Origin: Actinomycetota bacterium
Lineage (GTDB): Bacteria > Actinomycetota > Geothermincolia > Fen-727 > Anoxymicrobiaceae
NCBI GenBank assembly: GCA_018896525.1
Contig: JAHIMR010000040.1
Location: 11,492-75,491 of the forward strand
Length of the DNA: 64,000 bases
Reading direction: 5' to 3'
The translations under genes were made by a program, and so were the position numbers. The notes under the pieces are model-generated. The model was not told where the DNA came from and did no database searches. It worked only from the letters and a program-made list of their open reading frames with translations. Shown here one piece after another: positions 3,396 to 60,520 of this stretch. Every line of letters begins with the position of its first letter. Position 1 is the stretch's first letter.

Positions 3396-3518
3396 GCCCC
3401 GCTCCATAAATACGCTCTCGGTGCTCTACCGTATCCATGGAACGGGGCACTGGGTCGCGCGCCTTGCCGGAGCGGCGCCACGCTCTCGGTGCTTAACCGT
3501 ATCTATGGAACGAGGCAC
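3396..3518. repeat. MITE/REP-like palindromic element (family A). A short form with the left TIR joined directly to the right TIR, plus one extra right arm.
   Basis: TGCCCCGCTCCATAAATACG ... CGTATCCATGGAACGGGGCAC followed by ...CGTATCTATGGAACGAGGCAC. The same termini occur at 12 other loci. Confidence 0.9.
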
Positions 3519-3521
3519 TAA

Positions 3522-9329: not shown

Positions 9330-10367
9330 ATGGTTAGAGAGATAGACGATCGAAAAAAGAAGATACTGCGGGCGGTGGTCCAGGGGTTCATACTTACCGG
9401 CAATCCGGTAGGCTCGAAGTCGGCCGCAAAGGCATCAGGGCTCCGCATCAGTCCGGCGACAGTCAGGAACGAGATGGCTGTCCTGGAGAAACTGGGATTG
9501 CTGGAGCAGCCGTACACGTCCGCCGGACGGGTGCCTACAGACCTGGCGTACCGGTACTACGTGGATATGCTTATGGAACAGCAGAAGCCTTCCGGCAGAG
9601 ACGCCGAGGCGGTCGAGAAGCTGTTCGCGGTGAAGACGCGGGAGGTGGAGGGGTTCTTCAGGGAAGCGTCTCTGATCCTGTCGAACCTGACCCACGCCAC
9701 AGCGATGGTGTTCGCGCCGTTAGGCACGGCCGACAAGGTCAGGCATATTGACCTGGTCCGCATGAATGGACCCGGGGTGATGGTAATTATAATAACCGAC
9801 CGGGGACAGGTCGGAAGGCGCCTGTTAGGCCTGGCGAACCCGGTAGAGGACGATACATTGGATAGGGTATGCGATTACCTTGACCGGTCGCTGTCCGGCG
9901 TGGGGCTGGACGCGATCGACGCCAAGGCCTTGATCGAGCGGTTCCGGTTTGGAAAGGCCGGCGTAGATCTATTGAGCGGCGCTCTCGAAGCGGTACGCGA
10001 GTACCTGGGCACTGTCGAGGAGCGCGTCTACGTGGGGGGCACCGCCAACATAGTGAGGGAGATGGATTCCGCGGGAACCGAATGGGTCCAGTTGCTGCTA
10101 GAGTCAATGGAGAAGCAGTACTTCATCCTGGACCTTTTAAAGGACCTCGTCAGCGGGGAGCGTCTGACGGTCCGGATAGGTGAGGAAAACCGCCTGAGAG
10201 AGCTCAGGAAATGCAGTTTCGTCGGCACCAGTTACCCTGCCGGCCGGGGGCTGTTCGGTTCGCTCGGAGTAGTAGGCCCCACTTGCATGGACTATGCCCG
10301 AACGATTGGGATGGTTGAGCTGATGGCCGATAGCCTGGGTCAGAGGCTCTGGGGGCCGGTGGATTAA
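9330..10367 (+). CDS. hrcA: Heat-inducible transcription repressor HrcA.
   Basis: N-terminal winged-helix region (RKKKILRAVVQGFILTGNPVGSKSAAKASGLRISPATVRNEMAVLEKLGLL), about 345 aa, autoregulated via the upstream CIRCE. The start was moved to ATG 9330, with GAGGCGAGG as RBS. Confidence 0.9.
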   Translation: MVREIDDRKKKILRAVVQGFILTGNPVGSKSAAKASGLRISPATVRNEMAVLEKLGLLEQPYTSAGRVPTDLAYRYYVDMLMEQQKPSGRDAEAVEKLFAVKTREVEGFFREASLILSNLTHATAMVFAPLGTADKVRHIDLVRMNGPGVMVIIITDRGQVGRRLLGLANPVEDDTLDRVCDYLDRSLSGVGLDAIDAKALIERFRFGKAGVDLLSGALEAVREYLGTVEERVYVGGTANIVREMDSAGTEWVQLLLESMEKQYFILDLLKDLVSGERLTVRIGEENRLRELRKCSFVGTSYPAGRGLFGSLGVVGPTCMDYARTIGMVELMADSLGQRLWGPVD

Positions 10368-10529
10368 GTGCCTAGCTCCATAAATACGCTGGCATTCGAA
10401 CCCCGCTGCATCCACACCGGCTGCGTTCCGCTCCCTAGAAGTACTACAGGAGTACGTCTAGGTCGCGCGCCTTGCCGGAGTGGCGCTTCGACGCTCTCGG
10501 TGCTTAACCGTATCTATGGAACGAGGCAC
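10368..10529. repeat. MITE/REP-like element family A, full-length copy (left arm, centre GTACTACAGGAGTAC, right arm).
   Basis: 21-bp TIRs GTGCC(T/C)(A/C)GCTCCATAAATACG ... CGTATCTATGGAACGAGGCAC. It fills the entire hrcA-dnaJ intergenic region. Confidence 0.9.
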
Positions 10530-11645: not shown

Positions 11646-11713
11646 AACGCCCGGCTCGCCCATTCGGCAGGTTACCCGGGGGGCACCGGCAAGATATCAT
11701 ATGCCCTTTCTAG

Positions 11714-11768
11714 TGCCCCGTCTCACAAATACGCTGGCATTCGAACGCCGCTGCATCCACACCGGCTA
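11714..11768. repeat. Family A element, isolated left arm only.
   Basis: GTGCCCCGTCTCACAAATACGCTGGCATTCGAACGCCGCTGCATCCACACCGGCT with no partner arm. Confidence 0.8.
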
Positions 11769-11804: not shown

Positions 11805-13052
11805 GTGAAAGAGCGCACCTATCGCGTCATTACACTGGGCTGCCGGGTCAACCGCTCCGATTCGCTGGAGATAGAAAAGGAGCTTTCAAGGCGTTCCTTT
11901 GAGCGGTCGCCCCCGGGGGAGCCGCCGGATCTCTGGGTGGTAAACACCTGCGCGGTTACCGTGGAGGGTATGAGGAAGTCGCGCAAGGCGGTGAGGAAGT
12001 GCCTGCGGGCCGGGGGGGAAGTGGTAGTGACCGGCTGCGCGGTTGCCTTTGACCCGGGGGCGTTCGAGGAAATGGGCGTAAGCGTGCTGGTGGGGAACGA
12101 GCAAAAAGGGAGCCTGGCAGGGATCGCCTGCGGGCCGGCACTCGGTCCCGACCCGGTGGCGCCGGGCCAGCCGGAACTGACGCGCGTCCCGATCAAGGTG
12201 CAGGACGGGTGCCGGAGGTACTGTACCTACTGTATCGTGCCGTACCTCAGGGGCCGCCCTTACTGCCGGGATGTTGAATCGGTTGTTGCCGATGTGCGCT
12301 ATTACAGAGACGCCGGGGCGGGTGAGGTGATACTTTGTGGGATCGACCTGGGGAGTTATAGAGACCCATCCACCAAAGAGGGATTGGAACTCCTGGCATT
12401 GAAAGCGGCCGAGGAGGCCGGTGATATGTGGGTGCGCTTGAGCTCGTTGGACCTGACGGACGTAAGCGAGCGGCTGATTTCCATGCTGGGTGAGGGTGAA
12501 AACCTGTGCGGGCATCTGCACATCCCCCTGCAGAGCGCTGACCGCGGGGTGCTTGGCGACATGGGGCGTGGGTACGGGCCGGAGGAGTTTCGAAGAAAGG
12601 TGGACGAGATAAGGCGCAAGGTGCCGGACGTCATCGTTACCACCGATGTCATGGTGGGGTTCCCTACCGAGGACGAGCGTGCTTTTGAGAACACCCGGTC
12701 CTTCCTCGAGGAGATGTCTTTCTCGCGGGTCCACGTGTTCAGGTACTCGCCGAGGCCCGGGACGGCGGCGTTCTCACTGGGGGACCCCGTGGGTCCGACG
12801 GAAAAGCGGGAAAGGGCCACGGAGCTTCGTCGTATCGCGAGAGAGACCGCGAAGAGGTTTCACGAGAGCCTCATTGGTCGTATAATCGCAGTATTGATAG
12901 AGGCGGAGATGGAGACCGAGCCGGGCATGGTGTTCGGACGAACGCAGGGTTTTGCCGGGATAATAGCGCCGGGGGACGGTGGCATGGTGGGGAGGAAGGT
13001 ACTCATGCGGGTTACATCCGCCGGGCCGCGGTGGATTCGAGGCGAGCCATAA
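11805..13052 (+). CDS. mtaB: MiaB-like tRNA methylthiotransferase, MtaB/YqeV type (MTTase N domain, radical-SAM core, TRAM domain).
   Basis: 415 aa with an N-terminal cysteine triad (LGCRVN ... NTCAV ... GCAV), radical-SAM CRRYCTYCIVP and a C-terminal TRAM domain. Sits after dnaJ as yqeV does in Firmicutes. Confidence 0.8.
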   Translation: MKERTYRVITLGCRVNRSDSLEIEKELSRRSFERSPPGEPPDLWVVNTCAVTVEGMRKSRKAVRKCLRAGGEVVVTGCAVAFDPGAFEEMGVSVLVGNEQKGSLAGIACGPALGPDPVAPGQPELTRVPIKVQDGCRRYCTYCIVPYLRGRPYCRDVESVVADVRYYRDAGAGEVILCGIDLGSYRDPSTKEGLELLALKAAEEAGDMWVRLSSLDLTDVSERLISMLGEGENLCGHLHIPLQSADRGVLGDMGRGYGPEEFRRKVDEIRRKVPDVIVTTDVMVGFPTEDERAFENTRSFLEEMSFSRVHVFRYSPRPGTAAFSLGDPVGPTEKRERATELRRIARETAKRFHESLIGRIIAVLIEAEMETEPGMVFGRTQGFAGIIAPGDGGMVGRKVLMRVTSAGPRWIRGEP

Positions 13053-13141
13053 GTACGGTTGCGCACCGAGAGCGTGGCGCCGCTCCGGCAAGGCGCGTGA
13101 CTCAGTGCCCCGTTCCATGGATACGGTTAAGCACCGAGAGC
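13053..13141. repeat. Family A element, right-arm type in reverse orientation.
   Basis: ...GCACCGAGAGCGTGGCGCCGCTCCGGCAAGGCGCGTGACTCAGTGCCCCGTTCCATGGATACGGTTAAGCACCGAGAGCGC. Confidence 0.8.
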
Positions 13142-13183
13142 GCATTTTGTGGAGCGGGGTACTAAAACAGAGAGGGAAGGTGA

Positions 13184-14031: not shown

Positions 14032-14194
14032 GTGCTCCATTCCACAAACACGCTGGCATTCGAACGCCGCTGCATCCACACCGGCCGCGTTCCGCTCCTC
14101 AGACGTACTACAGGAGTACGTCTCAGTCGCGCGCCTTGCCGGAGCGGCGCATCGACGCTCTCGGTGCTTAACCGTGTTTACGGAACGGAGCAAC
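14031..14194. repeat. Family A element, full length, degenerate termini.
   Basis: GTGCTCCATTCCACAAACACGCTGGCATTCGAACGCCGCTGCATCCACACCGG ... CGTACTACAGGAGTACGTC ... GGTGCTTAACCGTGTTTACGGAACGGAGCAAC. Confidence 0.9.
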
Positions 14195-23716: not shown

Positions 23717-23879
23717 GTGTTCCGTCCCATGGGTAGCTTTACGCACCGAGAGCGTCGATGCGCCACTCCGGCAAGGCGCGTGACCGAGGCTGTACTCACG
23801 TAGTACGCCGAGGGAGCGGAACGCAGCCGGTGTGGATGCAGCGGGGTTCGAATGCCAAGATATCTGTGGGACGGAGCAC
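23717..23879. repeat. Family A element, full length, reverse orientation.
   Basis: GTGTTCCGTCCCATGGGTAGCTTTACGCACCGAGAGCGTCGATGCGCC ... ATATCTGTGGGACGGAGCAC. Confidence 0.9.
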
Positions 23880-23953
23880 TAGACTGTTTAGAAAGCGACG
23901 GACGTTCGGGCAGGTAAGGTCAATCGGGCGTATTCGAGGTTTTGAGGAACTCG

Positions 23954-26065: not shown

Positions 26066-26460
26066 AAGTCCCCCGCTCCACAGATACGCTGGCATTCGAA
26101 CGCCGCTCCCGTCCACTCCGGCTGCGTTCCGCTCCCTCGGCGTACTAGAGAAGTACGGATAAGTCCCCCGCTACACAGATACGCTGGCATTCGAACGCCG
26201 CTGCATCCACTCCGGCTGCGTTCCGCTCCCTCGGCGTACTAGAGAAGTACGTCTCGGTCGCGCGCCTTGCCGGAGCGACGCTTCGACGCTCTCGGTGCTT
26301 AACCGTATCTATGGAACGGGGCACTGAGTCGCGCGCCTTGCCGGAGCGGCGCCACGCTCTCGGTACGTAACCGTATTTATGGAACGGGGCACTGAGTCGC
26401 GCGCCTTGACGGAGCGATGCCACGCTCTCGGTACGTAACCGTATTTATGGAACGGGGGAC
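26066..26460. repeat. Family A nested array: 2 tandem left arms, 1 centre, 3 tandem right arms (about 395 bp).
   Basis: Left arm twice (…CCCCCGCT(C/A)CACAGATACGCTGGCATTCGAACGCCGCT…CTCCGGCTGCGTTCCGCTCCCTCGGCGTACTAGAGAAGTACG…). Right arm three times (GTCGCGCGCCTTGCCGGAGCG..GC..CGCTCTCGGT.C.TAACCGTATTTATGGAACGGGG.AC). It fills the recA-recX gap. Confidence 0.9.
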
Positions 26461-26463
26461 TAA

Positions 26464-26943
26464 GACATCGATGACAAGGCGCTTCAACGGGCATTAAGAT
26501 TCATCGATTACAGGCCGCGGTCGGCGGGAGAAACCCGGGACAGGCTAAGCAGGTGGGGATACACCGGCGATGTGATCGATGAGGTAATAGCTTACCTCCA
26601 GTCGAAAGGGATTATTGATGACCTGCTGTTCACAGAACTGTTCATGGAGGAGATGCTGCGGAAAGGCTTCGGTTGCCGCCGTGTTCGTAGTGGGCTTAAA
26701 AAGAAAAAACTGGATATCGAACTGGTAGAGGAGGCAATGTCCGGTTACCCGCTGAACCAGGAGGCTGAAAGGGCGCGGACGATAGCGGCAGTCAGGGTCT
26801 CGCGGATGGCGAACGAGGAACCGGCCAAAAGAAAGACAAAGATCATGCATTACCTGATAAGGCAAGGCTATTCGCCGGAGGTGGCAGACGAGGTCAGTCG
26901 CTCTGTTGTCATTGACACTCAAACGGGGCGAGAATACAATTAA
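26464..26943 (+). CDS. recX: RecX regulatory protein; the 5' end abuts the repeat array and there is no canonical start codon.
   Basis: The open frame from 26464 reads DIDDKALQRALRFIDYRPRSAGETRDRLSRWGYTGDVIDEVIAYLQSKGIIDD..., typical RecX helical repeats. The first ATG/GTG/TTG in frame is GTG 26572, which would remove the first conserved helix. A TAA at 26461 sits directly after the last repeat unit. Confidence 0.7.
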   Translation, partial: DIDDKALQRALRFIDYRPRSAGETRDRLSRWGYTGDVIDEVIAYLQSKGIIDDLLFTELFMEEMLRKGFGCRRVRSGLKKKKLDIELVEEAMSGYPLNQEAERARTIAAVRVSRMANEEPAKRKTKIMHYLIRQGYSPEVADEVSRSVVIDTQTGREYN

Positions 26944-27077
26944 GTCAGTAACGAGTTGCGTTAGGATACCAACTAATTGCCTAATGAGGTATGTCAGGGT
27001 TAGTGGACGGTCAAAGACAGGTTGTACCTGAGCGTTTGAATAGCTCAGGGTAGTTGAGAAGTTCATTGGTATTCTTG

Positions 27078-27105
27078 CGCCGAGCGTTGCTCGGCGTGTT
27101 TTATT
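27078..27105 (+). terminator. Rho-independent terminator after recX (GCGCCGAG-CGTTG-CTCGGCG plus TGTTTTATT).
   Basis: 7-8-bp GC stem and a U-tract, read directly. Confidence 0.7.
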
Positions 27106-27123: not shown

Positions 27124-28656
27124 ATGATCTACGCTATTATCGTAACCGTTGGGTTGGCGGCGGGCTTCGTCACCGGATTCTTCATTCGCAGGTACATCGG
27201 AAACTCACGGGTGGCAAACGCCGAAACGACGGCCACTCGATTGGTTTCCGACGCCAAGAGAGAGTCGGAGAACCTGAAACGTGAAGCTCAACTTGAGGCA
27301 AAAGACAGCATTCACACGATGAGGGGTGATGCGGAGCGCGAAATAATGAGCAGGCGAAGTGAACTGCAGAAGTTGGAGCGCAGGTTAAACAAGCGTGAGG
27401 AGAACGTCGAAGGGGAAGAAGCGGATACCAGGAACAGGATGAAGAAAATCGTTTCCAGGGAGGAGCACCTCAAATCGCAGGAGTCCAAGTTGGCCAGGGC
27501 AGCCTCCGAGCAGAAGCGCCTGGTTGAGAAAGTGGCGATGATGTCCACGCAGGAAGCGAAGGAGTACCTGCTGGAAACCGTGAGAAGCGATGTCAGGAGT
27601 GAGAGCGCCCTGTTCATAAAGGAAGAGGAAGGAAGGGTTCGTGAAGAGGCCGACAAGAGGGCGAGAAAGATAATCTCGTTGGCGATTCAGAGGTGCGCGT
27701 CGGAACATGTGGCGGAAACAACGGTATCCGTCGTAATGCTTCCCAATGACGAGATGAAAGGCAGGATAATCGGACGGGAAGGGCGAAACATACGCACCTT
27801 CGAGAACCTGACCGGCATAAACCTGATAATTGACGACACCCCTGAAGCGGTCATACTGTCGAGCTTTGATCCCGTCCGTCGTGAGATCGCCAGGATATCA
27901 CTGGAGAAGTTGATAAGTGACGGCAGGATACAGCCGGCACGTATAGAGGAGATGTACGAGAAGGCCAAGGCGGAGGTGGAGAACGAGATAAGGGAGGCTG
28001 GTGAAGAGGCGGTCTTCGAGGTTGGGATACATAACCTCAACAAGGAGTTGGTACGGGCGCTGGGCAGGTTGAAGTTCAGGACCTCCTACGGACAGAACGT
28101 CCTCATGCACTCCCTGGAGGTTTCCAGGCTCGCCGGGATAATGGCCTCGGAACTTGGGCTGGAACCGCGCGTATCAAAGCGTGCCGGCCTGCTACACGAT
28201 ATCGGGAAGGCCATAGACCACGAGGTGGAAGGATCACACGCGCTCATCGGCGCGGAACTGGCAAAAAGGCTGGGAGAGAGTGAAATCATATGCCAGGCCA
28301 TAGAGGCCCATCACGGCGAGGTGGACGTAAAGACCATCGAGGATGTGTTGATACAGGCGGGCGACGCAATATCAGCGGCCAGGCCGGGGGCAAGGCGAGA
28401 GACACTCGATAATTATATCAAGAGGTTGGAGAAGCTTGAGGCCCTGGCCGATTCGTTTGATGGCGTGGACAGGTCTTACGCGATGCAGGCCGGACGCGAG
28501 ATACGGGTAGTGGTACAGGCGGATTCGGTCGATGACGTGATGAGCGCGTCGCTGGCGCGAGACATCGCCAGAGAGATCGAGGATCAACTGGACTACCCTG
28601 GACAGATAAAGATAACGGTCATCAGAGAGACCCGAGTTGTCGAGTATGCCAAGTAG
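27124..28656 (+). CDS. rny: Ribonuclease Y (N-terminal TM anchor, coiled coil, KH domain, HD domain).
   Basis: MIYAIIVTVGLAAGFVTGFFI TM helix; KH motif IGREGRNIRTFENLTGINLIIDDTPEAVILSSFD; HD motif HSLEV...LLHDIGKA. 510 aa; GGGGG RBS. Confidence 0.92.
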   Translation: MIYAIIVTVGLAAGFVTGFFIRRYIGNSRVANAETTATRLVSDAKRESENLKREAQLEAKDSIHTMRGDAEREIMSRRSELQKLERRLNKREENVEGEEADTRNRMKKIVSREEHLKSQESKLARAASEQKRLVEKVAMMSTQEAKEYLLETVRSDVRSESALFIKEEEGRVREEADKRARKIISLAIQRCASEHVAETTVSVVMLPNDEMKGRIIGREGRNIRTFENLTGINLIIDDTPEAVILSSFDPVRREIARISLEKLISDGRIQPARIEEMYEKAKAEVENEIREAGEEAVFEVGIHNLNKELVRALGRLKFRTSYGQNVLMHSLEVSRLAGIMASELGLEPRVSKRAGLLHDIGKAIDHEVEGSHALIGAELAKRLGESEIICQAIEAHHGEVDVKTIEDVLIQAGDAISAARPGARRETLDNYIKRLEKLEALADSFDGVDRSYAMQAGREIRVVVQADSVDDVMSASLARDIAREIEDQLDYPGQIKITVIRETRVVEYAK

Positions 28657-28668
28657 AGATGGCTACTT

Positions 28669-28831
28669 AGTACCCCGCTCCATAGATACGCTGGCATTCG
28701 AACGCCGCTGCATCCACACCGGCTGCGTTCCGCTCCCTCGACGTACTCCAGGAGTACGACTCGGTCACGCGCCTTGCCGGAGCGGCGCTTCGACGCTCTC
28801 GGTGCTTAACCGTATCTATGGAACGAGGCAC
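28669..28831. repeat. Family A element, full length.
   Basis: TACCCCGCTCCATAGATACGCTGGCATTCGAACGCCGCTGCATCCACACCGGCTGCGTTCCGCTCCCTCGACGTACTCCAGGAGTACGACTCGGTCACGCGCCTTGCCGGAGCGGCGCTTCGACGCTCTCGGTGCTTAACCGTATCTATGGAACGAGGCAC. Confidence 0.9.
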
Positions 28832-28890
28832 TTGAATTCGCGACGCACACCTGCGGGTCATGAGTCAAGCCGGACGAACTCGAGTAAACG

Positions 28891-29997
28891 ATGACAGGTC
28901 ATGAGAAAATCCCTCCCGGGGAAAATGAGCTGGTTGATTTCGTATCCAGCATCACTGACCAGGCGCTCCTGCGAATCGAGGAGAAGCTGCCGCACGGCTA
29001 TGTCCGTCTGAAGGTTGCGGAGGCGGAGAGGCGCCAGGCACAGCATGATATCCGCTCAGTGGAAGACATAGTGATTGAACTGGTCAGGAACTCCCGTGAC
29101 GCCGGGGCGAGGATAGTGCTGGTCGGGTTCCAGAAGGAGCAGGGTCGTTACCGCAGGATAACTGTTGTGGATGATGGGTGCGGCATACCGGAAGAGATGC
29201 ACGGGATTATCTTTGAGCCCCGTGTCACCTCCAAGGGCGATGAGTTCAACGTGGACCGGTACGGTGTGCATGGGCGGGGCATGGCGTTGTTCTCAATCGA
29301 GTCACGCGCTATCGACGCGCGGGTATGTTCGTCTGTACCCGAACAGGGAACCGCTATCGTGCTCTCGGTTGACACGATGTCGGTGCCCGAGCGTTCGGAC
29401 CAGGCCACGGTCCCCAGGCTCGACGAAGTGGATGGCAAGGATGAGGTGGGGGGAGGGCCCCACAATGTGCACAGGGCGCTCCTGGAGATGTCGGTCGATT
29501 ATCCGAAGATGCGTTTCTATCTGGGGTCATTTGCCGAAGTGATAGCCACACTTGGATCGCTTGCCGGGGACGGAGAGGAGTATGAGGGCGTACTCTGGCA
29601 GGGACTTTCGGACGTGAATGACGCCAGGCGATTAATGGATATTGCCCAGCCGTTGGGGCTCCCGATATCGGAGAGGAACGCTTATCGGGTACTGGGCGGG
29701 AAGATCGCGCCGCTTGGGACGGTCTATGACATGGCGGTGAAAAACCGGCAAGCCGCCACGGTTGCCGAAAAGCCTGCGACTCCATCGGCGCGTCACCGGG
29801 AACCCCGGAAGAGAAATCCCCTGCGGAGGATCAGGCCTGATGACCTGGCCGAGATCGGAAGTGAAGCCGGTCGGGTCGCCGAGCGGGTGTTGGGCAGGTA
29901 TTATCTGAAATCCTACGGAACTCCCCAGGTTCGGAGGGGGAGGGGCAAGCTCACCATATCGATCTATGTCAACGGAGAAGACGGTGAAGATCAATAA
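28891..29997 (+). CDS. Orphan GHKL/GHL-type ATPase resembling the MutL N-terminal ATPase domain (HATPase_c_3-like), with an uncharacterised ~200-aa C-terminal domain.
   Basis: ELVRNSRDAGA (compare MutL ELVENSLDAGA, N-box), VVDDGCGIPEE (compare MutL DNGCGI, G1), PRVTSK (compare MutL ATSK, motif III), GVHGRGMALFSI (compare MutL GFRGEALASI, G2). There is no MutL C-terminal dimerisation/endonuclease domain and no H-box as in histidine kinases. Confidence 0.6.
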   Translation: MTGHEKIPPGENELVDFVSSITDQALLRIEEKLPHGYVRLKVAEAERRQAQHDIRSVEDIVIELVRNSRDAGARIVLVGFQKEQGRYRRITVVDDGCGIPEEMHGIIFEPRVTSKGDEFNVDRYGVHGRGMALFSIESRAIDARVCSSVPEQGTAIVLSVDTMSVPERSDQATVPRLDEVDGKDEVGGGPHNVHRALLEMSVDYPKMRFYLGSFAEVIATLGSLAGDGEEYEGVLWQGLSDVNDARRLMDIAQPLGLPISERNAYRVLGGKIAPLGTVYDMAVKNRQAATVAEKPATPSARHREPRKRNPLRRIRPDDLAEIGSEAGRVAERVLGRYYLKSYGTPQVRRGRGKLTISIYVNGEDGEDQ

Positions 29998-30929
29998 TGT
30001 CGGGGTCAGGCCTTAGGCGAAGAACGGTGCTTCAAATCATCATCGCGCTACTGGTGTTGCTTGCGGCATCGGGGATTGCCGAGTATTTTCTGCACAGGGC
30101 CCGGTCGAACGCCGCTAGCGTGAAGGAATACCACGAGGTCGTAGCAAGTGACTGGGGCAAGACCGTCGAGCGCTCGGAGAGCGTAAACACGGCCCTCACC
30201 GGAGTGGTTTCACCAGCTGATCTCGGGAGCGTGGCGAGCGCCGCGGGGCTTATGAGGGGAGAGCTCCAGGGGATTCTGGACGCGCGTGAGAAAAACCCGC
30301 CTCCGTCGGGCGAACGAAACCTCGCCGGAGCGGAGACGGAGTGCTTGACCTCACTGGACCGTTACCTTGAGATGGTTGAAGAGCTTGCTACGGGTGGTGA
30401 TGAGGAGAGCATTGTGGAGGACCGGGCACTGTTGGAAAGCCGCGCGGCTCAGGCGCTTTCAAAGGTCAACGACTTCCTCTTCAACGCGGAGTTCACCGGA
30501 GACCAGATATCAGGTGAATTCTTCAGGGCGGGTGAATCCCTGGCAAACGCGTTCGCCCCGCCAGAGTGGCAGAGCGCTGAAGAAGAGGTGGCGTACGGGA
30601 TAGTCAACAGTTTCATGGACGCGGACATCAAGGAGTTTAACCCGGACGTGCTCTGGTCACTATCTTCGAGCAAGCGTATCGAGGGCCTGAGGTTAATGGG
30701 AGTCACAAGGGAGAACTTCGCCGAGGGCTGGATTGACGCCCGGGGCGAGGAGAAGCATCCGGTGGATTTCCACGTCAGCAGGCGCGGCATCGTGTTTACT
30801 CCATCCACCGTTGAGTTGGAGGTAGTCGTATACCTGGAGCGCGGTGCCCCCTGGAGAGAAACCGTTCGCCTGGTGAGGGAAGCTGATGGATGGAAAGTGG
30901 AAGGATATCCGTTTGTGGGCTGGCTGTAG
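29997..30929 (+). CDS. Membrane-anchored (single N-terminal TM) extracytoplasmic protein of unknown function, co-operonic with the GHKL ATPase (ATGA-type overlap).
   Basis: MSGSGLRRRTVLQIIIALLVLLAASGIAEYF signal anchor, a helical region, then a beta-rich C-terminus. No recognisable motif. Confidence 0.5.
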   Translation: MSGSGLRRRTVLQIIIALLVLLAASGIAEYFLHRARSNAASVKEYHEVVASDWGKTVERSESVNTALTGVVSPADLGSVASAAGLMRGELQGILDAREKNPPPSGERNLAGAETECLTSLDRYLEMVEELATGGDEESIVEDRALLESRAAQALSKVNDFLFNAEFTGDQISGEFFRAGESLANAFAPPEWQSAEEEVAYGIVNSFMDADIKEFNPDVLWSLSSSKRIEGLRLMGVTRENFAEGWIDARGEEKHPVDFHVSRRGIVFTPSTVELEVVVYLERGAPWRETVRLVREADGWKVEGYPFVGWL

Positions 30930-31255
30930 TGCCCCGTCTCACAAATACAATGGCATTCGAACGCCGCTGCATCCACACCGGCTGCGTTCCGCTCCCTCGA
31001 AGTACTAAGGAAGTACGTATGAGTACCCCGCTCCATAGATACGCTGGCATTCGAACGCCGATGCATCCACACCGGCTGCGTTCCGCTCCCTCGAAGTACT
31101 ACAGAAGTACGTCTCGGTCACGCGCCTTGCCGGAGCGGCGCATCGACGCTCTCGGTGCTGAACCGTATCTATGGAGCGAGGCACTGAGTCACGCGCCTTG
31201 CCGGAGCGGCGCACCGACGCTCTCGGTGCGTCACCGTACTTATGAGACGGGACAC
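30929..31255. repeat. Family A array: left arm, left arm plus centre plus 2 right arms.
   Basis: GTGCCCCGTCTCACAAATACAATGGCATTCGAACGCCGCTGCATCCACACCGGCTGCGTTCCGCTCCCTCGAAGTACT... repeated, ending ...CGGTGCGTCACCGTACTTATGAGACGGGACAC. Confidence 0.9.
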
Positions 31256-31370
31256 TAGTGTTTGTGATAGACAGGGACGATGTTTTAAAATGGACTGATT
31301 ATCGCCGAAGAGCGCGGTGAGTGACTCAAGCGATTCCAGCGGATAGAGGTTTGCGAGGGGGAACGGGTAG

Positions 31371-31748
31371 ATGGCACTTACGATACTTCAAATAGTGGGA
31401 GCGGTGGCGGTCGTTATCCTGGTACTGCTCATGATCCCGATCATGCTGAGGCTCCGAAGAACCATTGGCGAGGTTGGCGAGATCGTGGCGGACAGCCGCC
31501 CTCAGGCGATTACGCTGCTGAAGAAGGCTCAGTCGACCCTGGACAGTGTGAACCGGGAACTGGAGAGCATTGAGGAGATCACCGAGGAAACCCAGGTACT
31601 GATGGAGAAGGCGGGAGACGCATCGGCGGCGGTCGAGAAGGCGATCAAGTCCCCGCTGTCACGGATGGGGTTGATAACCGCAGGGGTGGCCGCGGCGGGT
31701 TTTGCCGCGAAAAGGCGGTTGTCCAGGGACCTCTCCGCTAAACGGTAA
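31371..31748 (+). CDS. DUF948-like small membrane protein (N-terminal TM plus coiled coil).
   Basis: ILQIVGAVAVVILVLLMIPIMLRL TM helix, then a charged coiled coil. 125 aa. Confidence 0.6.
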   Translation: MALTILQIVGAVAVVILVLLMIPIMLRLRRTIGEVGEIVADSRPQAITLLKKAQSTLDSVNRELESIEEITEETQVLMEKAGDASAAVEKAIKSPLSRMGLITAGVAAAGFAAKRRLSRDLSAKR

Positions 31749-33094
31749 TGACCGGCCATGCTTCAGGTGGACGGCCCACCTCTTACTTTATTCGCACTTT
31801 CGGCTGCCAGATGAACATGCACGATACCGAGCACCTGGAGGGAGTCCTTGAGGATTCCGGGTGCATCCTCGCCGTGGACATAACGCAGGCCGATGTAGTG
31901 ATCTTCAACACCTGCATGGTCCGGAAGAGCGCTGAGGATAAGGCGTGGGGCCAGATTAGAGCAACAGCGTCCCGGAACCAGTCGGCCGTGATCGCGGTTT
32001 GCGGCTGTATGGCCGAGAGATACGGGGTCGAGATAATGAGTCGTTGCCCGGGGGTCAACCTCGTGTTCGGGCTGGATTCCTTCGATAGGCTGGCCGATTT
32101 GCTGGAGAGGTGTGATGGGAGGCTCTGCGACCTTGGGAGTATCGATGACGCCTCCATAGATCGATTGCCGTCAAAGAGGTCAAGCCCTTCCGCCGCCTGG
32201 ATCCCGGTGAGCCACGGTTGTGACCGCTTCTGCTCCTACTGCATCGTTCCCCTGGTCAGGGGGAGAGAGAGGAGCAGGCCGTTTGATGAGATTACAGAGG
32301 AGGTCCGTCGCCTGGCTGATGACGGCGTCCTGGAGGTCACGTTGCTGGGACAGAACGTCAACTCCTACGGAAGAGAGCTGGACGGGGCCTCCTTCGCCGG
32401 ATTACTGGAGGCGGTGGCAAACCAACCCGGGATCCGGCGGGTGAAGTTCGAGACCTCGCATCCCGGCGACCTGTCCGACTCGATTTTGAGGGTCATGTCC
32501 GAGACCGCGGAGGTGTGCGAGTACCTTCACATCCCTGTCCAATCGGGCTCGAACAGCATTCTCGAGGCGATGGGGAGAGGTTATGACCGGGATTACTACC
32601 TTCAGCGAGTTGAACGCGCACGTGAACTCATGCCCGGAGTGGTTGTTTCGACTGACATAATGGTAGGTTTTCCCGGTGAAACCGACGATGATTTCGAGAA
32701 CACCATGGACCTTGTTCGGGCGGTGGGATTCGATGCCGCCTTTATGTTCATATACTCTCGCCGTGAGGGCACCGCAGCCGCGGCGATGGAAAACGAGGTG
32801 TCACAGTCGGTCTTAAAGGAGCGATTCGAGGCCCTTAGCCGCCTGCAGAGCCGTCTAACGGGGAGTTCCCTGAGCAACCTGGTGGGGAGCACGGTGGAAC
32901 TGCTGGTGGAATGCGAGGCCAGGAGTGGTGAATACGTGGTGGGAAGAACACGCGGAAACCAGGTCGTGCTGCTGCCGGCCGAAGATGCGCCGCTTCATTC
33001 ACTTGTTGAAGCGTCGGTAACGAGCGCCGGTGGCCACGCCGCCAGGGGACGGGTGGACAAGGTGATAAGGGAGCCGGGTCGTAGCACCTGGTAG
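31748..33094 (+). CDS. miaB: tRNA-2-methylthio-N6-dimethylallyladenosine synthase MiaB.
   Basis: YFIRTFGCQMNMHDTE (MTTase N-terminal), radical-SAM CDRFCSYCIVP, C-terminal TRAM. 448 aa. TAATG overlap with the upstream gene. Confidence 0.9.
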   Translation: MTGHASGGRPTSYFIRTFGCQMNMHDTEHLEGVLEDSGCILAVDITQADVVIFNTCMVRKSAEDKAWGQIRATASRNQSAVIAVCGCMAERYGVEIMSRCPGVNLVFGLDSFDRLADLLERCDGRLCDLGSIDDASIDRLPSKRSSPSAAWIPVSHGCDRFCSYCIVPLVRGRERSRPFDEITEEVRRLADDGVLEVTLLGQNVNSYGRELDGASFAGLLEAVANQPGIRRVKFETSHPGDLSDSILRVMSETAEVCEYLHIPVQSGSNSILEAMGRGYDRDYYLQRVERARELMPGVVVSTDIMVGFPGETDDDFENTMDLVRAVGFDAAFMFIYSRREGTAAAAMENEVSQSVLKERFEALSRLQSRLTGSSLSNLVGSTVELLVECEARSGEYVVGRTRGNQVVLLPAEDAPLHSLVEASVTSAGGHAARGRVDKVIREPGRSTW

Positions 33095-37545: not shown

Positions 37546-37608
37546 TACCGAGTCGTTCTCTCCTGTATTATACTAACCAGTGTCCGAATATGCCTTTCAT
37601 GTTCATAA

Positions 37609-37772
37609 GTGCCCCGTTCCATGAATACGGTTAAGCACCGAGAGCGTCGAAGCGCCACTCCGGCAAGGCGCGCGACCGAGTCGTACTCCTGGAGTACGTC
37701 GAGGGAGCGGAACGCAGTCGGTGTGGACGGGAGCGGCGTTCGAATGCCAGCGTATTTATGGAGCGGGGCACT
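37609..37772. repeat. Family A element, full length, reverse orientation.
   Basis: GTGCCCCGTTCCATGAATACGGTTAAGCACCGAGAGCGTCGAAGCGCC ... GTATTTATGGAGCGGGGCAC. Confidence 0.9.
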
Positions 37773-39774: not shown

Positions 39775-39885
39775 GACGGTGGACCCGGCTGGATTTGAAC
39801 TACTTACTAAAGACCAGCGATAATCAAAGTTCAAATACAGCCGGGCGAAACGATGTACAAGCGTTCCACGAGCAAACGCACACAA
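39775..39885 (+). ncRNA. Conserved ~110-nt structured element (copy 2): stem ATTTGAACT / AGTTCAAAT, 26-nt loop, tail ...CGAGCAAACGCACACAAGCAA. It is 38 nt upstream of the Nramp gene.
   Basis: See copy 1 at 20365-20473. The covarying base pair is nt 39801 paired with 39828. Confidence 0.45.
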
Positions 39886-39922
39886 GCAAGCGGTATTGGA
39901 ACATCTAAGCTGGTGAATAACG

Positions 39923-41161
39923 GTGAAAAAGAGAAAATGTATCAAGCGGGAAGCGCTGATGTACGCCGCGGTGGCCGGGCCCGGTATCGTCACCGCGCTG
40001 GCGGGCAACGGCGCGAGCGGGATAACCACCTACTCGGTGATCGGCTCCAGGTTTGGCCTTTCCCTGGTCTGGCTGCTCACCATATGCACGGTCAGTCTCG
40101 CGGTCTTCCAGGAGATGTCGGCGCGCATGGGCGCTGTCACCGGCAAGGGGCTTGCTTCCCTCATCAGGGAGCGTTTTGGGCTTCGTCTCACATTCTTTGC
40201 GATGATGGTCCTGCTGGTGGCCAACGTCGCCATAACCATCGCGGAGTTCGCCGGAGTAGCCGCCAGCCTCGAGCTTTTCGGTTTGAGCAAGTACATCACC
40301 GTTCCCGCGATCGCCATCTTTATCTGGGTGGTGGTTACCAAAGGCTCCTTCAGCAGAGTGGAGAAGGTTTTTCTCGCCATCTGCCTTATCCAGGTCTCCT
40401 ACCTGATTTCCGGCTTCATGGTAAAGCCCGATTGGGGACAGGTTGCCCTGGCGATGGTGAAACCGGAGGTAAGCACGAATCCGGCGTTCGTGCTCGCCGC
40501 GATCGCCATCGTGGGAACCACCGTGGCGCCGTGGATGCAGTTCTTTGTGCAGTCGAACGTGGTGGACAAGGGAATCGATATGGCGGAGTACAAGTACGAG
40601 AGGATGGACGTGATAACCGGGTCGATCCTCTCGAACGTGATATCCCTGTTCATCATCATATGCACCGCGTTTACTCTCTTTCCCGTCCAGGTGGTGGAGA
40701 CGGCCGAGCAGGCCGCCGTGGCATTGAGTCCCCTGGCCGGGTCTGGCGCCAAATGGCTTTTCGGATTCGGGCTTTTCGGCGCCTCCATGCTTGCCGCCAG
40801 CGTCGTTCCGCTTTCAACCTCCTACGCGGTGTGCGAGGCTTTCGGCTGGGAGAGCGGTATAGGGAGAAAGCTTTCCGAGGCCCCCATCTTCTTCGGCATA
40901 TACTCGCTGTCCATACTGCTGGGTGTCGTCGTGGTGCTTATTCCCGGCGTTTCGCTGGTGAGGATAATGTTGTTGGCCCAGGAACTCAATGGTATACTCT
41001 TGCCGGTTATCTTGATTTTCATGCTGACAATCGTCAACGATCCGCAGATAATGGGGGAGCACGTTAACGGACCGGCGGCCAACGCGATCGCCTGGATCAC
41101 CGCTTGCGGGGCATTCGTCCTGGGACTGGTGCTGTTTGTAACCGGAATGTTCGCGCTCTAA
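39923..41161 (+). CDS. mntH: Nramp-family divalent metal (Mn2+/Fe2+) transporter.
   Basis: AGPGIVTALAGNGASG (Nramp DPGN-like signature region), 11-12 TM helices, 412 aa. Confidence 0.85.
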   Translation: MKKRKCIKREALMYAAVAGPGIVTALAGNGASGITTYSVIGSRFGLSLVWLLTICTVSLAVFQEMSARMGAVTGKGLASLIRERFGLRLTFFAMMVLLVANVAITIAEFAGVAASLELFGLSKYITVPAIAIFIWVVVTKGSFSRVEKVFLAICLIQVSYLISGFMVKPDWGQVALAMVKPEVSTNPAFVLAAIAIVGTTVAPWMQFFVQSNVVDKGIDMAEYKYERMDVITGSILSNVISLFIIICTAFTLFPVQVVETAEQAAVALSPLAGSGAKWLFGFGLFGASMLAASVVPLSTSYAVCEAFGWESGIGRKLSEAPIFFGIYSLSILLGVVVVLIPGVSLVRIMLLAQELNGILLPVILIFMLTIVNDPQIMGEHVNGPAANAIAWITACGAFVLGLVLFVTGMFAL

Positions 41162-41162
41162 T

Positions 41163-41319
41163 GCCACGCTCCATAAATACACTGGCATTCGAACGCCGCT
41201 GCATCCACACCGGCCGCGTTCCGCTCCCTCGGCGTACTACAGGAGTACGACTCGGTCGCGCGCCTTGCCGGAGCGGCGTCACGCTCTCGGTGCTTAACCG
41301 TATCTATGGAACGAGGCAG
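41163..41319. repeat. Family A element, full length. Its right terminus GGAACGAGGCAG supplies the Shine-Dalgarno for the next gene.
   Basis: TGCCACGCTCCATAAATACACTGGCATTCGAACGCC ... CGTACTACAGGAGTACGACTCGGTCGCGCGCC ... CGTATCTATGGAACGAGGCAG, then TAACTA and the ATG at 41326. Confidence 0.9.
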
Positions 41320-43203: not shown

Positions 43204-43263
43204 GAACCGCGCGTCCCGGGCCAACCCCTCTCGTAACCGCGCCGCGGCCATGATCGCAACTAG

Positions 43264-43587
43264 TGCCCCGTCTCATAGAATACAATGGCATTCGAACGCC
43301 GCTGCATCCACACCGGCTGCGTTCCGCTCCCTCGAAGTACTACAGGAGTACGTTCTAGTGCCCCGCTCCATGGATACGCTGGCATTCGAACGCCGCCGCA
43401 TCCACACCGGCCGCGTTCCGCTCCCTCGACGTACTACAGGAGTACGTCTCAGTCGCGCGCCTTGCCGGAGCGGCGCTTCGACGCTCTCGGTGCTTAACCG
43501 TATCCATGGAACGGGGCACTTGGTCGCGCGCCTTGCCGGAGCGGCGCCACGCTCTCGGTGCGTCACCGTATTTATGAGACGGGACAC
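43264..43587. repeat. Family A array: left arm, then a full element, then an extra right arm (about 325 bp).
   Basis: GTGCCCCGTCTCATAGAATACAATGGCATTCGAACGCCGCTGCATCCACACCGGCTGCGTTCCGCTCCCTCGAAGTACTACAGGAGTACG + GTGCCCCGCTCCATGGATACG...CCATGGAACGGGGCAC + ...CGTATTTATGAGACGGGACAC. Confidence 0.9.
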
Positions 43588-43623
43588 TGGATCCCCGGGG
43601 CAATCACGGCGGAGAACGGTAAC

Positions 43624-49920: not shown

Positions 49921-50024
49921 TTCCGCTCCCGGAAAAACGGCCTTTCACTGCCCTTATGCTAACAGATACCCGGAACTGTCACAGTTCCCGTCCTGGTCTC
50001 CGAGCAACAACGGGCGGCCTATAG

Positions 50025-50350
50025 TGCCCCGTCTCACAAATACAATGGCATTCGAACGCCGCTGCATCCACACCGGCTGCGTTCCGCTCCCTCGAAGTAC
50101 TACAGGAGTACGTTTTAGTACCCCGCTCCATAAATACGCCGGCATTCGAACGCCGCTGCATCCACTCCGGCTGCGTTCCGCTCCCTCGAAGTACTCCAGA
50201 AGTACGTCTCGGTCGCGCGCCTTGCCGGAGCGGCGCTTCGACGCTCTCGGTGCTCAACCGTATCTATGGAACGGGGCACTGAGTCGCGCGCCTTGCCGGA
50301 GCGGCGCTTCGACGCTCTCGGTGCATCACAGTACTTATGAGACGGGACAC
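50025..50350. repeat. Family A array: left arm, then a full element, then an extra right arm.
   Basis: GTGCCCCGTCTCACAAATACAATGGC... + GTACCCCGCTCCATAAATACGCC... + ...GGTGCATCACAGTACTTATGAGACGGGACAC. Confidence 0.9.
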
Positions 50351-50456
50351 TGGTGATTTCCAACGAGGTCACAGTAGAATATAATCTCAGTGTATGTGAA
50401 CGTGATGCCCGTGTCTCCAGCGTAAAGGCGGGCAGCAAGCAAGGAAGGTGGTTGCG

Positions 50457-60277: not shown

Positions 60278-60520
60278 TCAGCCGGCGTGATTGGCGATCT
60301 CGGTGGGCCTTGGGACATGACAGCGCCAGGACTGCATGACCGCTCCGTCATCGTCCACCAGCACCATCGATGGCGTACACAGCACACTGTGGAACGCCGC
60401 CTCTGCCAGGCCATCAGCCTTGTCCATGTTGAACATCTTGCTGAACGTGAACTGTCTCGCCACCTCCTTCGCCGCCGGGCAGTTAGGACAATCTTCCTTC
60501 ACGAACACCTTGAGTACCAT
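60278..60520 (-). CDS. Glutaredoxin-like / NrdH-like small redoxin (thioredoxin fold, CPNC active site).
   Basis: MVLKVFVKEDCPNCPAAKEV..., 80 aa. Lies between nrdD and dut. Confidence 0.7.
   Translation of the reverse strand: MVLKVFVKEDCPNCPAAKEVARQFTFSKMFNMDKADGLAEAAFHSVLCTPSMVLVDDDGAVMQSWRCHVPRPTEIANHAG

What the first reader, a model, noticed from the sequence alone, without database searches (positions are those of the whole stretch)
28891..30929. Orphan MutL-N-terminal-like GHKL ATPase in a two-gene operon with a membrane-anchored protein, boxed in by MITE clusters: candidate uncharacterised system
- The 368-aa protein carries the complete GHL-type Bergerat-fold motif set, with wording very close to MutL: ELVRNSRDAGA, DDGCGIPEE, PRVTSK, GRGMALFSI.
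- It lacks the MutL C-terminal dimerisation/endonuclease domain and has a novel ~200-aa tail instead.
- Its gene overlaps the start of a 310-aa protein with a single N-terminal TM anchor and an extracytoplasmic domain of unknown fold.
- The pair sits between rny and miaB, where Firmicutes carry ymdB. It is flanked by family A elements on both sides (28669-28831 and 30929-31255).
- Actinobacteria-like genomes lack canonical MutS/MutL (they use NucS), so a stand-alone MutL-like ATPase is unexpected.
- GHKL/HATPase_c_3 modules paired with membrane or effector partners are a recurring theme in phage-defence and signalling systems.
Basis: partly seen in the sequence, partly recalled or inferred. 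Interest (0 to 1): 0.65.

Follow-up and report, generated by a model that had tools for sequence, protein, structure and literature searches.

The report
Conserved MutL-like ATPase beside RNase Y
The gene encodes a stand-alone ATPase with a MutL-like ATP-binding domain and an unmatched tail, an uncharacterised core gene fixed just downstream of the RNase Y gene in a whole branch of Actinomycetota, not a mobile or defence module.

Summary
The 368-aa and 310-aa ORFs, the MutL-like motifs, the 1-nt overlap, the N-terminal membrane anchor and the flanking 164-nt repeats are all present.

- **ATP-binding domain:** it is closer to MutL than to histidine kinases (family profile against PDB: MutL 1.3e-10, best kinase 5.7e-4).
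- **Not a MutL:** there is no transducer domain and no C-terminal domain. An invariant Arg replaces the second acidic catalytic residue. The 200-aa tail matches nothing in Pfam or PDB.
- **Conserved position:** in all 87 related loci examined (Geothermincolia and Coriobacteriia, including Collinsella, Olsenella and Eggerthella) the gene lies directly after rny. In 73 of 84 loci scored, spoVS follows it. In B. subtilis ymdB lies next to rny; that ymdB–spoVS order is general in Firmicutes is from my own knowledge.
- **Membrane protein:** it occurs only in the window's own clade, where it takes the place of spoVS.
- **Repeats:** they sit at 12 or more intergenic sites in the window. A 95%-identical relative lacks them at both sites flanking the pair.
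- **Mobility and defence:** no PADLOC match, no phage hit, no true plasmid hit.

Best reading: a vertically inherited, ATP-driven dimerising switch co-expressed with RNase Y. The partner and the function are inferred, not shown. Coriobacteriia are reported to lack both MutS-MutL and NucS, so a DNA-repair role remains possible.

The parts
28891..29997 (+). Gene for a 368-aa stand-alone GHL-type (MutL-like) ATPase, a member of an uncharacterised family of uniform length (about 340-400 aa)
   Evidence: ORF. Pfam HATPase_c and HATPase_c_3. More than 2400 homologues by word search. 217 clusters at 50% identity with E<=1e-30. AlphaFold model with mean pLDDT 85.7.
28978..29046 (+). aa 30-52, the most conserved stretch of the protein (IEE.L.HG.VRLKV.EAERRQA.HD). 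The model shows a beta-hairpin plus a helix ahead of the ATP-binding fold. Inferred to be a dimerisation strap, as in MutL and GyrB.
   Evidence: Invariant columns E30, E31, G36, V38, L40, E44, A45, R47-A50 and D53. Block conservation is 0.80-0.91. The strap role is inference.
29047..29385 (+). Bergerat-fold ATP-binding domain, aa 53-165. Motif I is E63-L-V-R66-N67-S-R-D70-A, motif II D94-D-G-C-G98, motif III R111-V-T-S-K115, motif IV G125-V-H-G-R-G130-M-A-L.
   Evidence: ExxRN is found in 87 of 87 loci and RVTSK in 85 of 87.
29386..29994 (+). Family-specific tail, aa 166-368. It comprises an acidic helical middle domain (including LGLPISERNAYRVL, aa 254-267), a variable basic linker (about aa 293-312) and a terminal helix plus beta-hairpin (aa 316-362).
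   Evidence: No Pfam match. No PDB sequence match. The tail-only model has pLDDT 84.8 and no Foldseek match (best E 0.65). The tail is found only in this architecture.
29997..30929 (+). Gene for a 310-aa protein with an N-terminal membrane anchor. It is clade-specific (Anoxymicrobiaceae-like) and occupies the place of spoVS. It is not a conserved partner of the ATPase.
   Evidence: It is found only in L001-L003, L005 and L082-L084. The 64-kb window holds no spoVS.
27124..28656 (+). rny (RNase Y, 510 aa), the invariant upstream neighbour and the likely operon partner of the ATPase
   Evidence: rny directly precedes the ATPase on the same strand in 84 of 84 loci scored. In Collinsella aerofaciens RefSeq the two genes are 1 nt apart.
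28669..28832 (.). 164-nt MITE-like repeat with 22-nt inverted ends, inserted between rny and the ATPase gene. It is incidental and recent.
   Evidence: It is absent at this site in L082, which is 95% identical. It folds as a long hairpin.
30928..31256 (.). Compound array of the same repeat (half, full, half) between the membrane-protein gene and the DUF948 gene. It is incidental and recent.
   Evidence: It is absent at this site in L082.

Best explanation
The 368-aa protein belongs to an undescribed, vertically inherited family of stand-alone GHL-type ATPases, that is, ATPases with a MutL-like Bergerat fold. In the Actinomycetota loci examined (Geothermincolia and Coriobacteriia), all of which carry rny, the gene is fixed directly downstream of rny. 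It is usually followed by spoVS, which encodes an Alba-fold protein.

**Proposed mechanism (inferred):** like other GHL ATPases, the protein is a dimeric ATP-operated switch.
- ATP binds the Bergerat fold, where the catalytic residues E63, N67 and D94 and the Gly-rich lid are all invariant.
- ATP binding closes the N-terminal domains through the very conserved strap at aa 30-52.
- The small C-terminal helix/beta-hairpin module, behind a flexible basic linker, holds the dimer together.
- The acidic middle domain docks a partner. The most likely partner is RNase Y, with which the gene is co-transcribed and often translationally coupled, and in most lineages also SpoVS.
- The protein would then act as a MutL-style matchmaker in RNA processing or decay.

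**What is shown and what is inferred:** the family, its motifs, its new tail, its fixed position and its vertical inheritance are shown. ATPase activity, dimerisation and the RNase Y partnership are inferred.

The 310-aa membrane protein is a clade-specific gene that took the place of spoVS. The MITEs are recent, unrelated insertions.
For: - **ATP-binding domain:** the motifs are invariant across 70 aligned sequences and across 87 loci.
- **MutL-like, not kinase-like:**. The canonical catalytic Glu, which histidine kinases typically replace (PMC13614785), is retained as E63.
- **Uniform stand-alone architecture:** there are no domain fusions.
- **Position:** rny comes immediately before the gene in 84 of 84 loci. 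The median distance from the rny stop to the first aligned residue is 58.5 nt, and it is 13 nt or less in most Collinsella loci. RefSeq places the two genes 1 nt apart in C. aerofaciens.
- **spoVS follows** in 73 of 84 loci.
- **RNA-related neighbours:** a PHP protein related to pAp phosphatase and RNase RNM, miaB and miaA.
- **Vertical inheritance:** identity of the ATPase tracks identity of rny, recA and miaB (Spearman rho 0.44-0.50).
- **Positional precedent:** B. subtilis has ymdB next to rny with polar transcription (PMC3542257). The ATPase therefore sits in the position of a known RNase Y operon partner.
- **No sign of mobility or defence**.
Against:
- Conserved gene order in this ancient recA-rny-spoVS-miaB block may reflect inheritance alone.
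- The window's own clade has lost spoVS from the locus but keeps the ATPase, so SpoVS is not an obligatory neighbour.
- The second acidic catalytic residue of MutL, GyrB and MORC is an invariant Arg here, so ATP turnover may be slow or work differently.
- The middle domain is acidic (mean net charge -7.6). This argues against direct nucleic-acid binding by the HTH-looking segment.
- The 80 genome loci were chosen by two peptide patterns and by best similarity. 'All relatives' therefore means all those sampled.
Confidence: 0.45

Rival explanations
1. DNA-repair factor. The protein is a MutL-derived ATPase that takes part in an undescribed mismatch or recombination-repair pathway in lineages that lack both MutS-MutL and NucS.
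For: - MutL is the closest known relative of the ATP-binding domain.
- All analysed Coriobacteriia lack both NucS and MutS-MutL (PMC5290159).
- The gene lies in the recA-recX block, with lexA nearby in Coriobacteriia.
- miaB and miaA are adjacent in Collinsella and have no mutS or mutL between them in L086 and L087. That Firmicutes carry mutS-mutL between miaB and miaA is from my own knowledge.
Against: - No endonuclease, transducer or clamp-binding module was detected.
- No mismatch-sensor gene is linked to it.
- The tight linkage is to rny, not to recA or recX.
- The middle domain is acidic.
- No LexA-box-like site lies upstream in the window, though this is a weak test.
- Whether Geothermincolia lack MutS-MutL was not tested.
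Confidence: 0.12
2. Nucleoid or other cellular role unrelated to RNase Y. One example is a MORC-like or Hsp90-like ATP clamp acting with SpoVS or other clients. Adjacency to rny would then be only inherited gene order.
For: - Pfam HATPase_c_3, the MutL/MORC type, scores above threshold.
- A sacsin-type (Hsp90-like) NCBIfam match appears for the Collinsella orthologue.
- spoVS (Alba superfamily; PMC11621453) is adjacent in 73 of 84 loci.
- The whole recA-to-lexA block is syntenic over long distances.
Against: - The very short or absent rny-ATPase spacer in many species suggests co-translation.
- No MORC S5 domain and no Hsp90 middle domain was found.
- spoVS is dispensable at the locus in the window's clade.
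Confidence: 0.15
3. Protein kinase or anti-sigma-type regulator. The protein would be a GHKL Ser/His kinase like SpoIIAB, RsbW or a histidine-kinase catalytic domain. Some pipelines annotate it this way.
For: - Pfam HATPase_c is the top Pfam match (38.6 bits).
- Several sources name homologues 'sensor histidine kinase' or 'anti-sigma regulatory factor'.
- Foldseek lists histidine-kinase catalytic domains with E-values near those of MutL.
Against: - No DHp/HisKA domain or H-box was found, and no anti-sigma-type Pfam family matched.
- The loci hold no STAS protein, sigma factor or response regulator.
- Profile ranking favours MutL by about six orders of magnitude.
- The MutL-specific RVTSK motif is conserved.
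Confidence: 0.07
4. One reading: a two-gene defence or signalling module (ATPase plus membrane-anchored effector), possibly mobile and delimited by MITEs.
For: - The two ORFs overlap by 1 nt in the window and in its closest relatives.
- GHKL modules do occur in defence systems (general knowledge).
Against: - The pairing is limited to one clade. Elsewhere spoVS follows the ATPase.
- The overlap is lost in L001 and L005.
- Most of the membrane protein is predicted to lie outside the cell, leaving about 10 cytoplasmic residues to contact the ATPase.
- There is no PADLOC match and no phage or true plasmid copy.
- The MITEs are absent at both sites in a 95%-identical relative.
Confidence: 0.03

Closest known systems
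MutL / MLH / PMS N-terminal ATPase domain (GHL subgroup of GHKL ATPases)
   Same: The Bergerat-fold motifs I-IV are nearly the same in wording: ELVxNSxDAGA, DDGxGI, RxTSK and GxxGxGxAL. MutL is the best match by NCBIfam, by PDB sequence profile (1.3e-10) and by Foldseek. The canonical catalytic Glu is retained. The overall layout is also similar: an ATPase module, a flexible linker and a small C-terminal module.
   Different: There is no transducer (DNA_mis_repair/S5) domain and no MutL_C dimerisation/endonuclease domain. The second acidic residue (aqMutL E32) is an invariant Arg. The score is far below the family cutoffs (41.5 against 180 bits). The protein is about 360 aa rather than about 600. 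It is linked to rny and spoVS, not to mutS.
MORC / paraMORC and Topo VI-B type GHKL ATPases (Pfam HATPase_c_3)
   Same: HATPase_c_3 scores above its gathering score. These are ATP-clamp-type ATPases. Foldseek aligns Topo VI-B over about 400 columns.
   Different: The Topo VI-B superposition is poor (rmsd over 20 A, TM about 0.3). No S5/transducer or H2TH domain is recognisable. The gene is not in a restriction-modification or defence context.
YmdB, the metallophosphoesterase encoded next to rny in Bacillus subtilis
   Same: It occupies the same genomic position, immediately downstream of rny (PMC3542257). That spoVS follows ymdB in Firmicutes is from my own knowledge.
   Different: The fold and the chemistry are unrelated: a GHKL ATPase against a calcineurin-like phosphoesterase. 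It is a positional analogue only.
Histidine-kinase catalytic domains and anti-sigma kinases (SpoIIAB, RsbW)
   Same: They share the generic GHKL fold. There is a Pfam HATPase_c match, and Foldseek E-values are similar to those for MutL.
   Different: There is no DHp/H-box, no partner-switching genes and no response regulator nearby. The MutL-type motif III is present. The sequence-profile match is much weaker than for MutL.

Membership tests
GHKL (Bergerat-fold) ATPase superfamily | N box (E/N/D), G1 box (DxGxG) and a G2 Gly-rich lid within an alpha/beta sandwich | tested here: met
   E63, N67, D70, D94, G96, G98, G125, G128 and G130 are invariant. Pfam HATPase_c scores 38.6 bits (cutoff 26.4) and HATPase_c_3 scores 34.7 (cutoff 25). 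The model matches MutL, Topo VI-B and histidine-kinase ATP-binding domains.
MutL family | MutL-type motifs I-IV in the ATP-binding domain, including motif III (R/H)xTSK | tested here: met
   ELVRNSRDAGA, DDGCGI, PRVTSK and GVHGRGMAL are present. RVTSK is found in 85 of 87 loci. The family profile gives aqMutL 1.3e-10.
MutL family | Second acidic catalytic residue next to the Mg-binding Asn (aqMutL E32), conserved in MutL, GyrB and MORC (PMC13614785) | tested here: not met
   The aligned position is R66, which is invariant: ExxRN in 87 of 87 loci.
MutL family | Transducer domain (DNA_mis_repair, ribosomal S5 domain 2 fold) after the ATP-binding fold | tested here: not met
   No Pfam match on aa 165-368 in four family members. 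Matches to MutL cover only about 140-150 columns or profile positions 52-156. The tail-only model has no PDB match.
MutL family | C-terminal dimerisation (and endonuclease) domain MutL_C, and a full-length score above the curated cutoff | tested here: not met
   No MutL_C match. TIGR00585 scores 41.5 bits against a cutoff of 180.
MORC / paraMORC ATPases | HATPase_c_3 ATP-binding domain followed by an S5-fold domain, often in restriction-modification or defence neighbourhoods | tested here: not met
   HATPase_c_3 is met. No S5 domain is found, and the context is core housekeeping with no PADLOC match.
Histidine kinase / anti-sigma Ser kinase | DHp (HisKA) domain with a phospho-accepting His, or a partner-switching neighbourhood (STAS anti-anti-sigma, sigma factor) | tested here: not met
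   No HisKA or HATPase_c_2 match. The neighbours are recA, recX, rny, spoVS and miaB.
Known anti-phage defence systems (PADLOC-DB) | Match to a defence-system protein model, a variable island context, or presence on mobile elements | tested here: not met
   The only PADLOC match has E 0.077 and is irrelevant. There are no phage hits, and the one 'plasmid' hit is a chromosome-like 900-kb replicon. The position is fixed in 84 of 84 loci.
ATP-dependent dimerising GHL clamp (working mode, not a family) | ATP hydrolysis and nucleotide-driven N-terminal dimerisation | not testable with these tools
   Only the catalytic residues and a conserved N-terminal strap can be seen. Biochemistry or multimer prediction is needed.

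The most novel reading that the evidence does not exclude
The family is the ATPase core of an undescribed nucleic-acid surveillance pathway in a bacterial class reported to lack both MutS-MutL and NucS (Coriobacteriia) and in Geothermincolia. One possibility is a third, MutL-derived route to mismatch or replication-error repair. The other is the first GHL-type ATPase that works on RNA together with RNase Y and an Alba-fold protein.
Probability: 0.12. Interest if true: 0.85.

Novelty: new variant of a known kind. Interest (0 to 1): 0.5.

Why it matters
- **Medical relevance:** Coriobacteriia include abundant human gut, oral and vaginal bacteria such as Collinsella, Eggerthella and Olsenella.
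- **Open repair question:** a 2017 survey found that Coriobacteriia have neither of the two known mismatch-repair systems. The question of how they repair mismatches has not been answered in the literature searched here.
- **Open RNase Y question:** RNase Y is the central mRNA-decay enzyme of Gram-positive bacteria, and its accessory factors are only partly understood.
- **What this finding adds:** a conserved MutL-like ATPase of unknown function, apparently co-expressed with RNase Y and found at this locus in every one of the 87 related loci examined, gives one concrete gene to test against both questions.
- **Annotation:** the gene is currently labelled 'ATP-binding protein', 'sensor histidine kinase' or 'anti-sigma factor'. 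The evidence here supports only the first of these labels.

Tried and rejected
- **Tail searches:** Pfam on the tails of four members, a tail profile against PDB sequences and Foldseek of a tail-only model all found nothing significant.
- **HTH idea:** the segment LGLPISERNAYRVL, with invariant S260, R262 and R266, looks like a helix-turn-helix by eye. No tool confirmed this, and the domain is acidic, so I do not claim DNA binding.
- **Domain fusions:** the longer family members showed no extra domains. The tail never occurs in another architecture.
- **Names for divergent members:** cluster look-up gave almost no taxonomy.
- **LexA-box scan:** GAAC-N4-GTTC gave one chance-level hit far from recA and rny. 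This is uninformative.
- **Rfam:** no match anywhere in the window.
- **mutS, mutL or nucS in the window:** none was found among the large ORFs. A 64-kb window cannot show that a genome lacks them.
- **Second structure job:** both prediction jobs went to the ATPase, so the 310-aa membrane protein has no model.
- **Literature:** searches for a description of this family, or of a link between RNase Y and Coriobacteriia, found nothing.
Full report
**1. What is in the sequence.** The region holds two same-strand ORFs, 28891-29997 (368 aa) and 29997-30929 (310 aa). The stop codon of the first and the start codon of the second share one base, TAATG. The order on the plus strand is thpR, recA, recX, rny (27124-28656), the ATPase gene, the 310-aa gene, a DUF948 gene (31371-31748), miaB (31748-33094), then isochorismatase, NAPRT and lipoate-ligase genes. 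They lie on invariant columns of a 70-sequence family alignment.

**2. The ATP-binding domain.**
- Pfam gives HATPase_c (38.6 bits) and HATPase_c_3 (34.7 bits) on aa 53-161, and nothing else.
- In NCBIfam the five best models are all MutL. The best is TIGR00585 at E 8e-11, but at 41.5 bits against a cutoff of 180. Histidine kinases start at 3.5e-6.
- A profile of the family against all PDB sequences ranks eleven MutL/MLH1 chains first, with Aquifex MutL at 1.3e-10. The first histidine kinase, CckA, is at 5.7e-4. All matches cover only profile positions 52-156.
- No anti-sigma-type family appears.
The ATP-binding domain is MutL-like.
- The canonical catalytic Glu, which histidine kinases typically replace (PMC13614785), is retained as invariant E63.
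- The second acidic residue is different. That paper shows it to be conserved and catalytically relevant in MutL, GyrB and MORC (aqMutL E32). Here it is an Arg (R66) in 87 of 87 loci. This sets the family apart from MutL, GyrB and MORC.

**3. The rest of the protein.**
- An AlphaFold model built on the 70-sequence alignment is confident (mean pLDDT 85.7, pTM 0.72).
- Foldseek against PDB matches only the ATP-binding fold. Hits are MutL LN40 (4e-5), Topo VI-B and histidine kinases, with whole-query TM scores of 0.2-0.3.
- The tails of four family members have no Pfam match even at E 10.
- A tail profile finds nothing in PDB sequences.
- A separate tail model (pLDDT 84.8) has no Foldseek match (best E 0.65).
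- The tail occurs only in this architecture, and longer family members carry no extra domains.
- The protein is therefore not a MutL. It has no transducer domain and no C-terminal dimerisation/endonuclease domain.
- The layout is as follows:
  - a highly conserved strap at aa 30-52, the best-conserved part of the protein;
  - the Bergerat fold;
  - an acidic helical middle domain with mean net charge -7.6;
  - a short, variable basic linker;
  - a terminal helix plus beta-hairpin.
- The segment LGLPISERNAYRVL looks like a helix-turn-helix, but nothing confirmed that.

**4. Distribution and context.**
- The family is compact and uniform. A profile search of 1.84 billion representatives gives 217 clusters at E<=1e-30 and 326 at E<=1e-10. 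Nearly all are 340-400 aa.
The 80 best are Candidatus Anoxymicrobiaceae and other Geothermincolia, plus Coriobacteriia including Collinsella, Olsenella, Atopobium, Eggerthella, Parolsenella and Thermophilibacter (taxonomy).
- In every locus the gene lies directly after rny and, wherever the locus extends far enough, before miaB. Across 84 loci the median distance from the rny stop to the first aligned ATPase residue is 58.5 nt. In most Collinsella loci it is 13 nt or less.
- RefSeq annotates the two genes 1 nt apart in C. aerofaciens. There the order is cinA, recA, recX, rny, 'ATP-binding protein', spoVS, miaB, miaA, hflX, lexA.
- In 73 of 84 loci the next gene is spoVS (Pfam E 1e-34 to 1e-39). 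SpoVS belongs to the Alba superfamily (PMC11621453).
- Further downstream, environmental Coriobacteriia carry a PHP protein related to pAp phosphatase and RNase RNM. Geothermincolia carry DUF948 and a TIM-barrel protein.
- A GNAT acetyltransferase is inserted between rny and the ATPase gene in a few lineages.
- Identity of the ATPase tracks identity of rny, recA and miaB (rho 0.44-0.50). This fits vertical inheritance.
- In B. subtilis the gene next to rny is ymdB, with polar transcription (PMC3542257). The ATPase therefore occupies the position of a known RNase Y operon partner. That the rny-ymdB-spoVS order is general in Firmicutes is from my own knowledge.

**5. The 310-aa protein.**
- It has few detectable homologues. 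A word search found 8, and four genome loci add homologues at 32-38% identity.
- All of them lie in the window's own clade, at the same position after the ATPase gene. These loci have no spoVS there, and the 64-kb window has none at all.
- The 1-nt overlap is kept only in the closest relatives. The gap is 28-43 nt in L001 and L005.
- The basic N-terminus before the hydrophobic stretch suggests that the N-terminus is inside and the bulk of the protein outside.
- Some members give weak sub-threshold matches to DUF4878 and DUF3828 at the C-terminus (5 of 11 members, best E 3e-4).
- It is a clade-specific neighbour, not a conserved partner.

**6. The repeats.**
- The 164-nt element with 22-nt inverted ends gives 24 blastn segments at 12 or more intergenic sites in the window. 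One of these lies between recA and recX.
- A metagenomic relative, L082, is about 95% identical in DNA across 13 kb and lacks the element at both sites flanking the pair. There the spacers are 63 nt and 117 nt, against 234 nt and 441 nt in the window.
- The 'boxing' is thus recent and incidental.

**7. Defence or mobility.** There is no PADLOC match and no phage hit. The single plasmid-collection hit is a 900-kb Collinsella replicon that carries recA, rny and lexA. The defence and mobile-module reading is not supported.

**8. Mechanism.**
- What is shown: a conserved, vertically inherited, stand-alone GHL ATPase with a complete catalytic set apart from R66, a new tail and a fixed position after rny.
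- What is inferred: it works as an ATP-operated dimerising switch, as other GHL ATPases do. Its partner is most likely RNase Y, with SpoVS in most lineages. This rests on apparent co-transcription, frequent near-zero spacers and the RNA-related neighbourhood.
- I put about 0.45 on this overall. I put about 0.85 on the 'core family fixed next to rny' part and about 0.35 on the RNase Y partnership itself.
- The main rivals are these:
  - an unrelated clamp or chaperone role, with gene order merely inherited (0.15);
  - a DNA-repair role (0.12);
  - a kinase or anti-sigma-type regulator (0.07);
- The repair rival deserves attention. All analysed Coriobacteriia are reported to lack both NucS and MutS-MutL (PMC5290159). 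In addition, miaB and miaA are adjacent in Collinsella and have no mutS or mutL between them in L086 and L087; that Firmicutes carry mutS-mutL there is from my own knowledge.
- Against the repair rival, the protein has no nuclease or sensor module, and its tightest link is to rny.

**9. Novelty and score.** No curated family, solved structure or paper describing this protein was found. It is a new variant of a known kind: a GHL ATPase with an unmatched tail, a diagnostic Arg in motif I and a fixed association with rny and spoVS. It is not a categorically new system, and its function remains untested. Interest is 0.5. The gene is ordinary in the sense of being a housekeeping gene. It is nevertheless a concrete, testable candidate bearing on two open questions, RNase Y accessory factors and mismatch repair in Coriobacteriia.

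Noticed in passing
window 3412-3519, 10367-10529, 11712-11767, 13047-13142, 14041-14187, 23723-23880, 26067-26461, 28669-28832, 30928-31256, 37608-37772, 41164-41318, 43262-43588, 50023-50351: A 164-nt MITE-like repeat with 22-nt inverted ends occupies 12 or more intergenic sites in 64 kb. Four sites carry the same compound arrangement: half (1-90), full copy, half (96-164), with one more half at 26067-26461. Rfam has no match. A 95%-identical relative has only one copy in the shared 13 kb.
   Followed up: partly
window 60483-63800 (-): The anaerobic ribonucleotide reductase NrdD ORF (1105 aa) is interrupted by an intein with a LAGLIDADG homing-endonuclease domain.
   Followed up: no
window 26912-26940 and 27076-27098: A near-consensus promoter-like site (11 of 12) lies inside the 3' end of recX. 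A GC-rich hairpin with a T-run lies just upstream of the rny start (27124). Together they could form a leader or attenuator for the rny operon.
   Followed up: no
L007 5431-5961; L027 5414-5932; L087 9491-9973: In some Coriobacteriia a GNAT acetyltransferase gene of about 160-176 aa is inserted between rny and the ATPase gene.
   Followed up: partly
L008 7465-8295; L034 7596-8423; L081 3542-4369; L087 11490-12308: In environmental Coriobacteriia, spoVS is followed by a PHP-domain protein related to 3',5'-nucleoside bisphosphate phosphatase and RNase RNM (206 and 156 bits, below cutoffs). It is a phosphoesterase in the neighbourhood where B. subtilis has the phosphoesterase YmdB.
   Followed up: partly
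L085 (NZ_OY725717.1, Collinsella aerofaciens 'plasmid 6', 899,693 bp): A record typed as a plasmid carries rimO, pgsA, cinA, recA, recX, rny, miaB, miaA, hflX and lexA. It looks like a chromosome or chromosome fragment rather than a plasmid.
   Followed up: no
window 31371-31748 and 31748-33094: The DUF948 (membrane-anchored, 125 aa) gene overlaps the miaB start by one base. This pairing recurs in the window's clade and in Geothermincolia-type loci, but not in Coriobacteriia.
   Followed up: no
window 39853-41067 (+) and 57149-58810 (+): Two large ORFs (404 aa and 553 aa) have no Pfam match at E<=1e-5.
   Followed up: no
L004, L023, L025, L042, L043, L049: Loci labelled Acidimicrobiales, Aeromicrobium, Bacteroidaceae or Eubacteriales have the same recA-rny-ATPase-spoVS-miaB order and the same identity levels as the Coriobacteriia loci. 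Their taxonomic labels are probably binning or naming errors.
   Followed up: no
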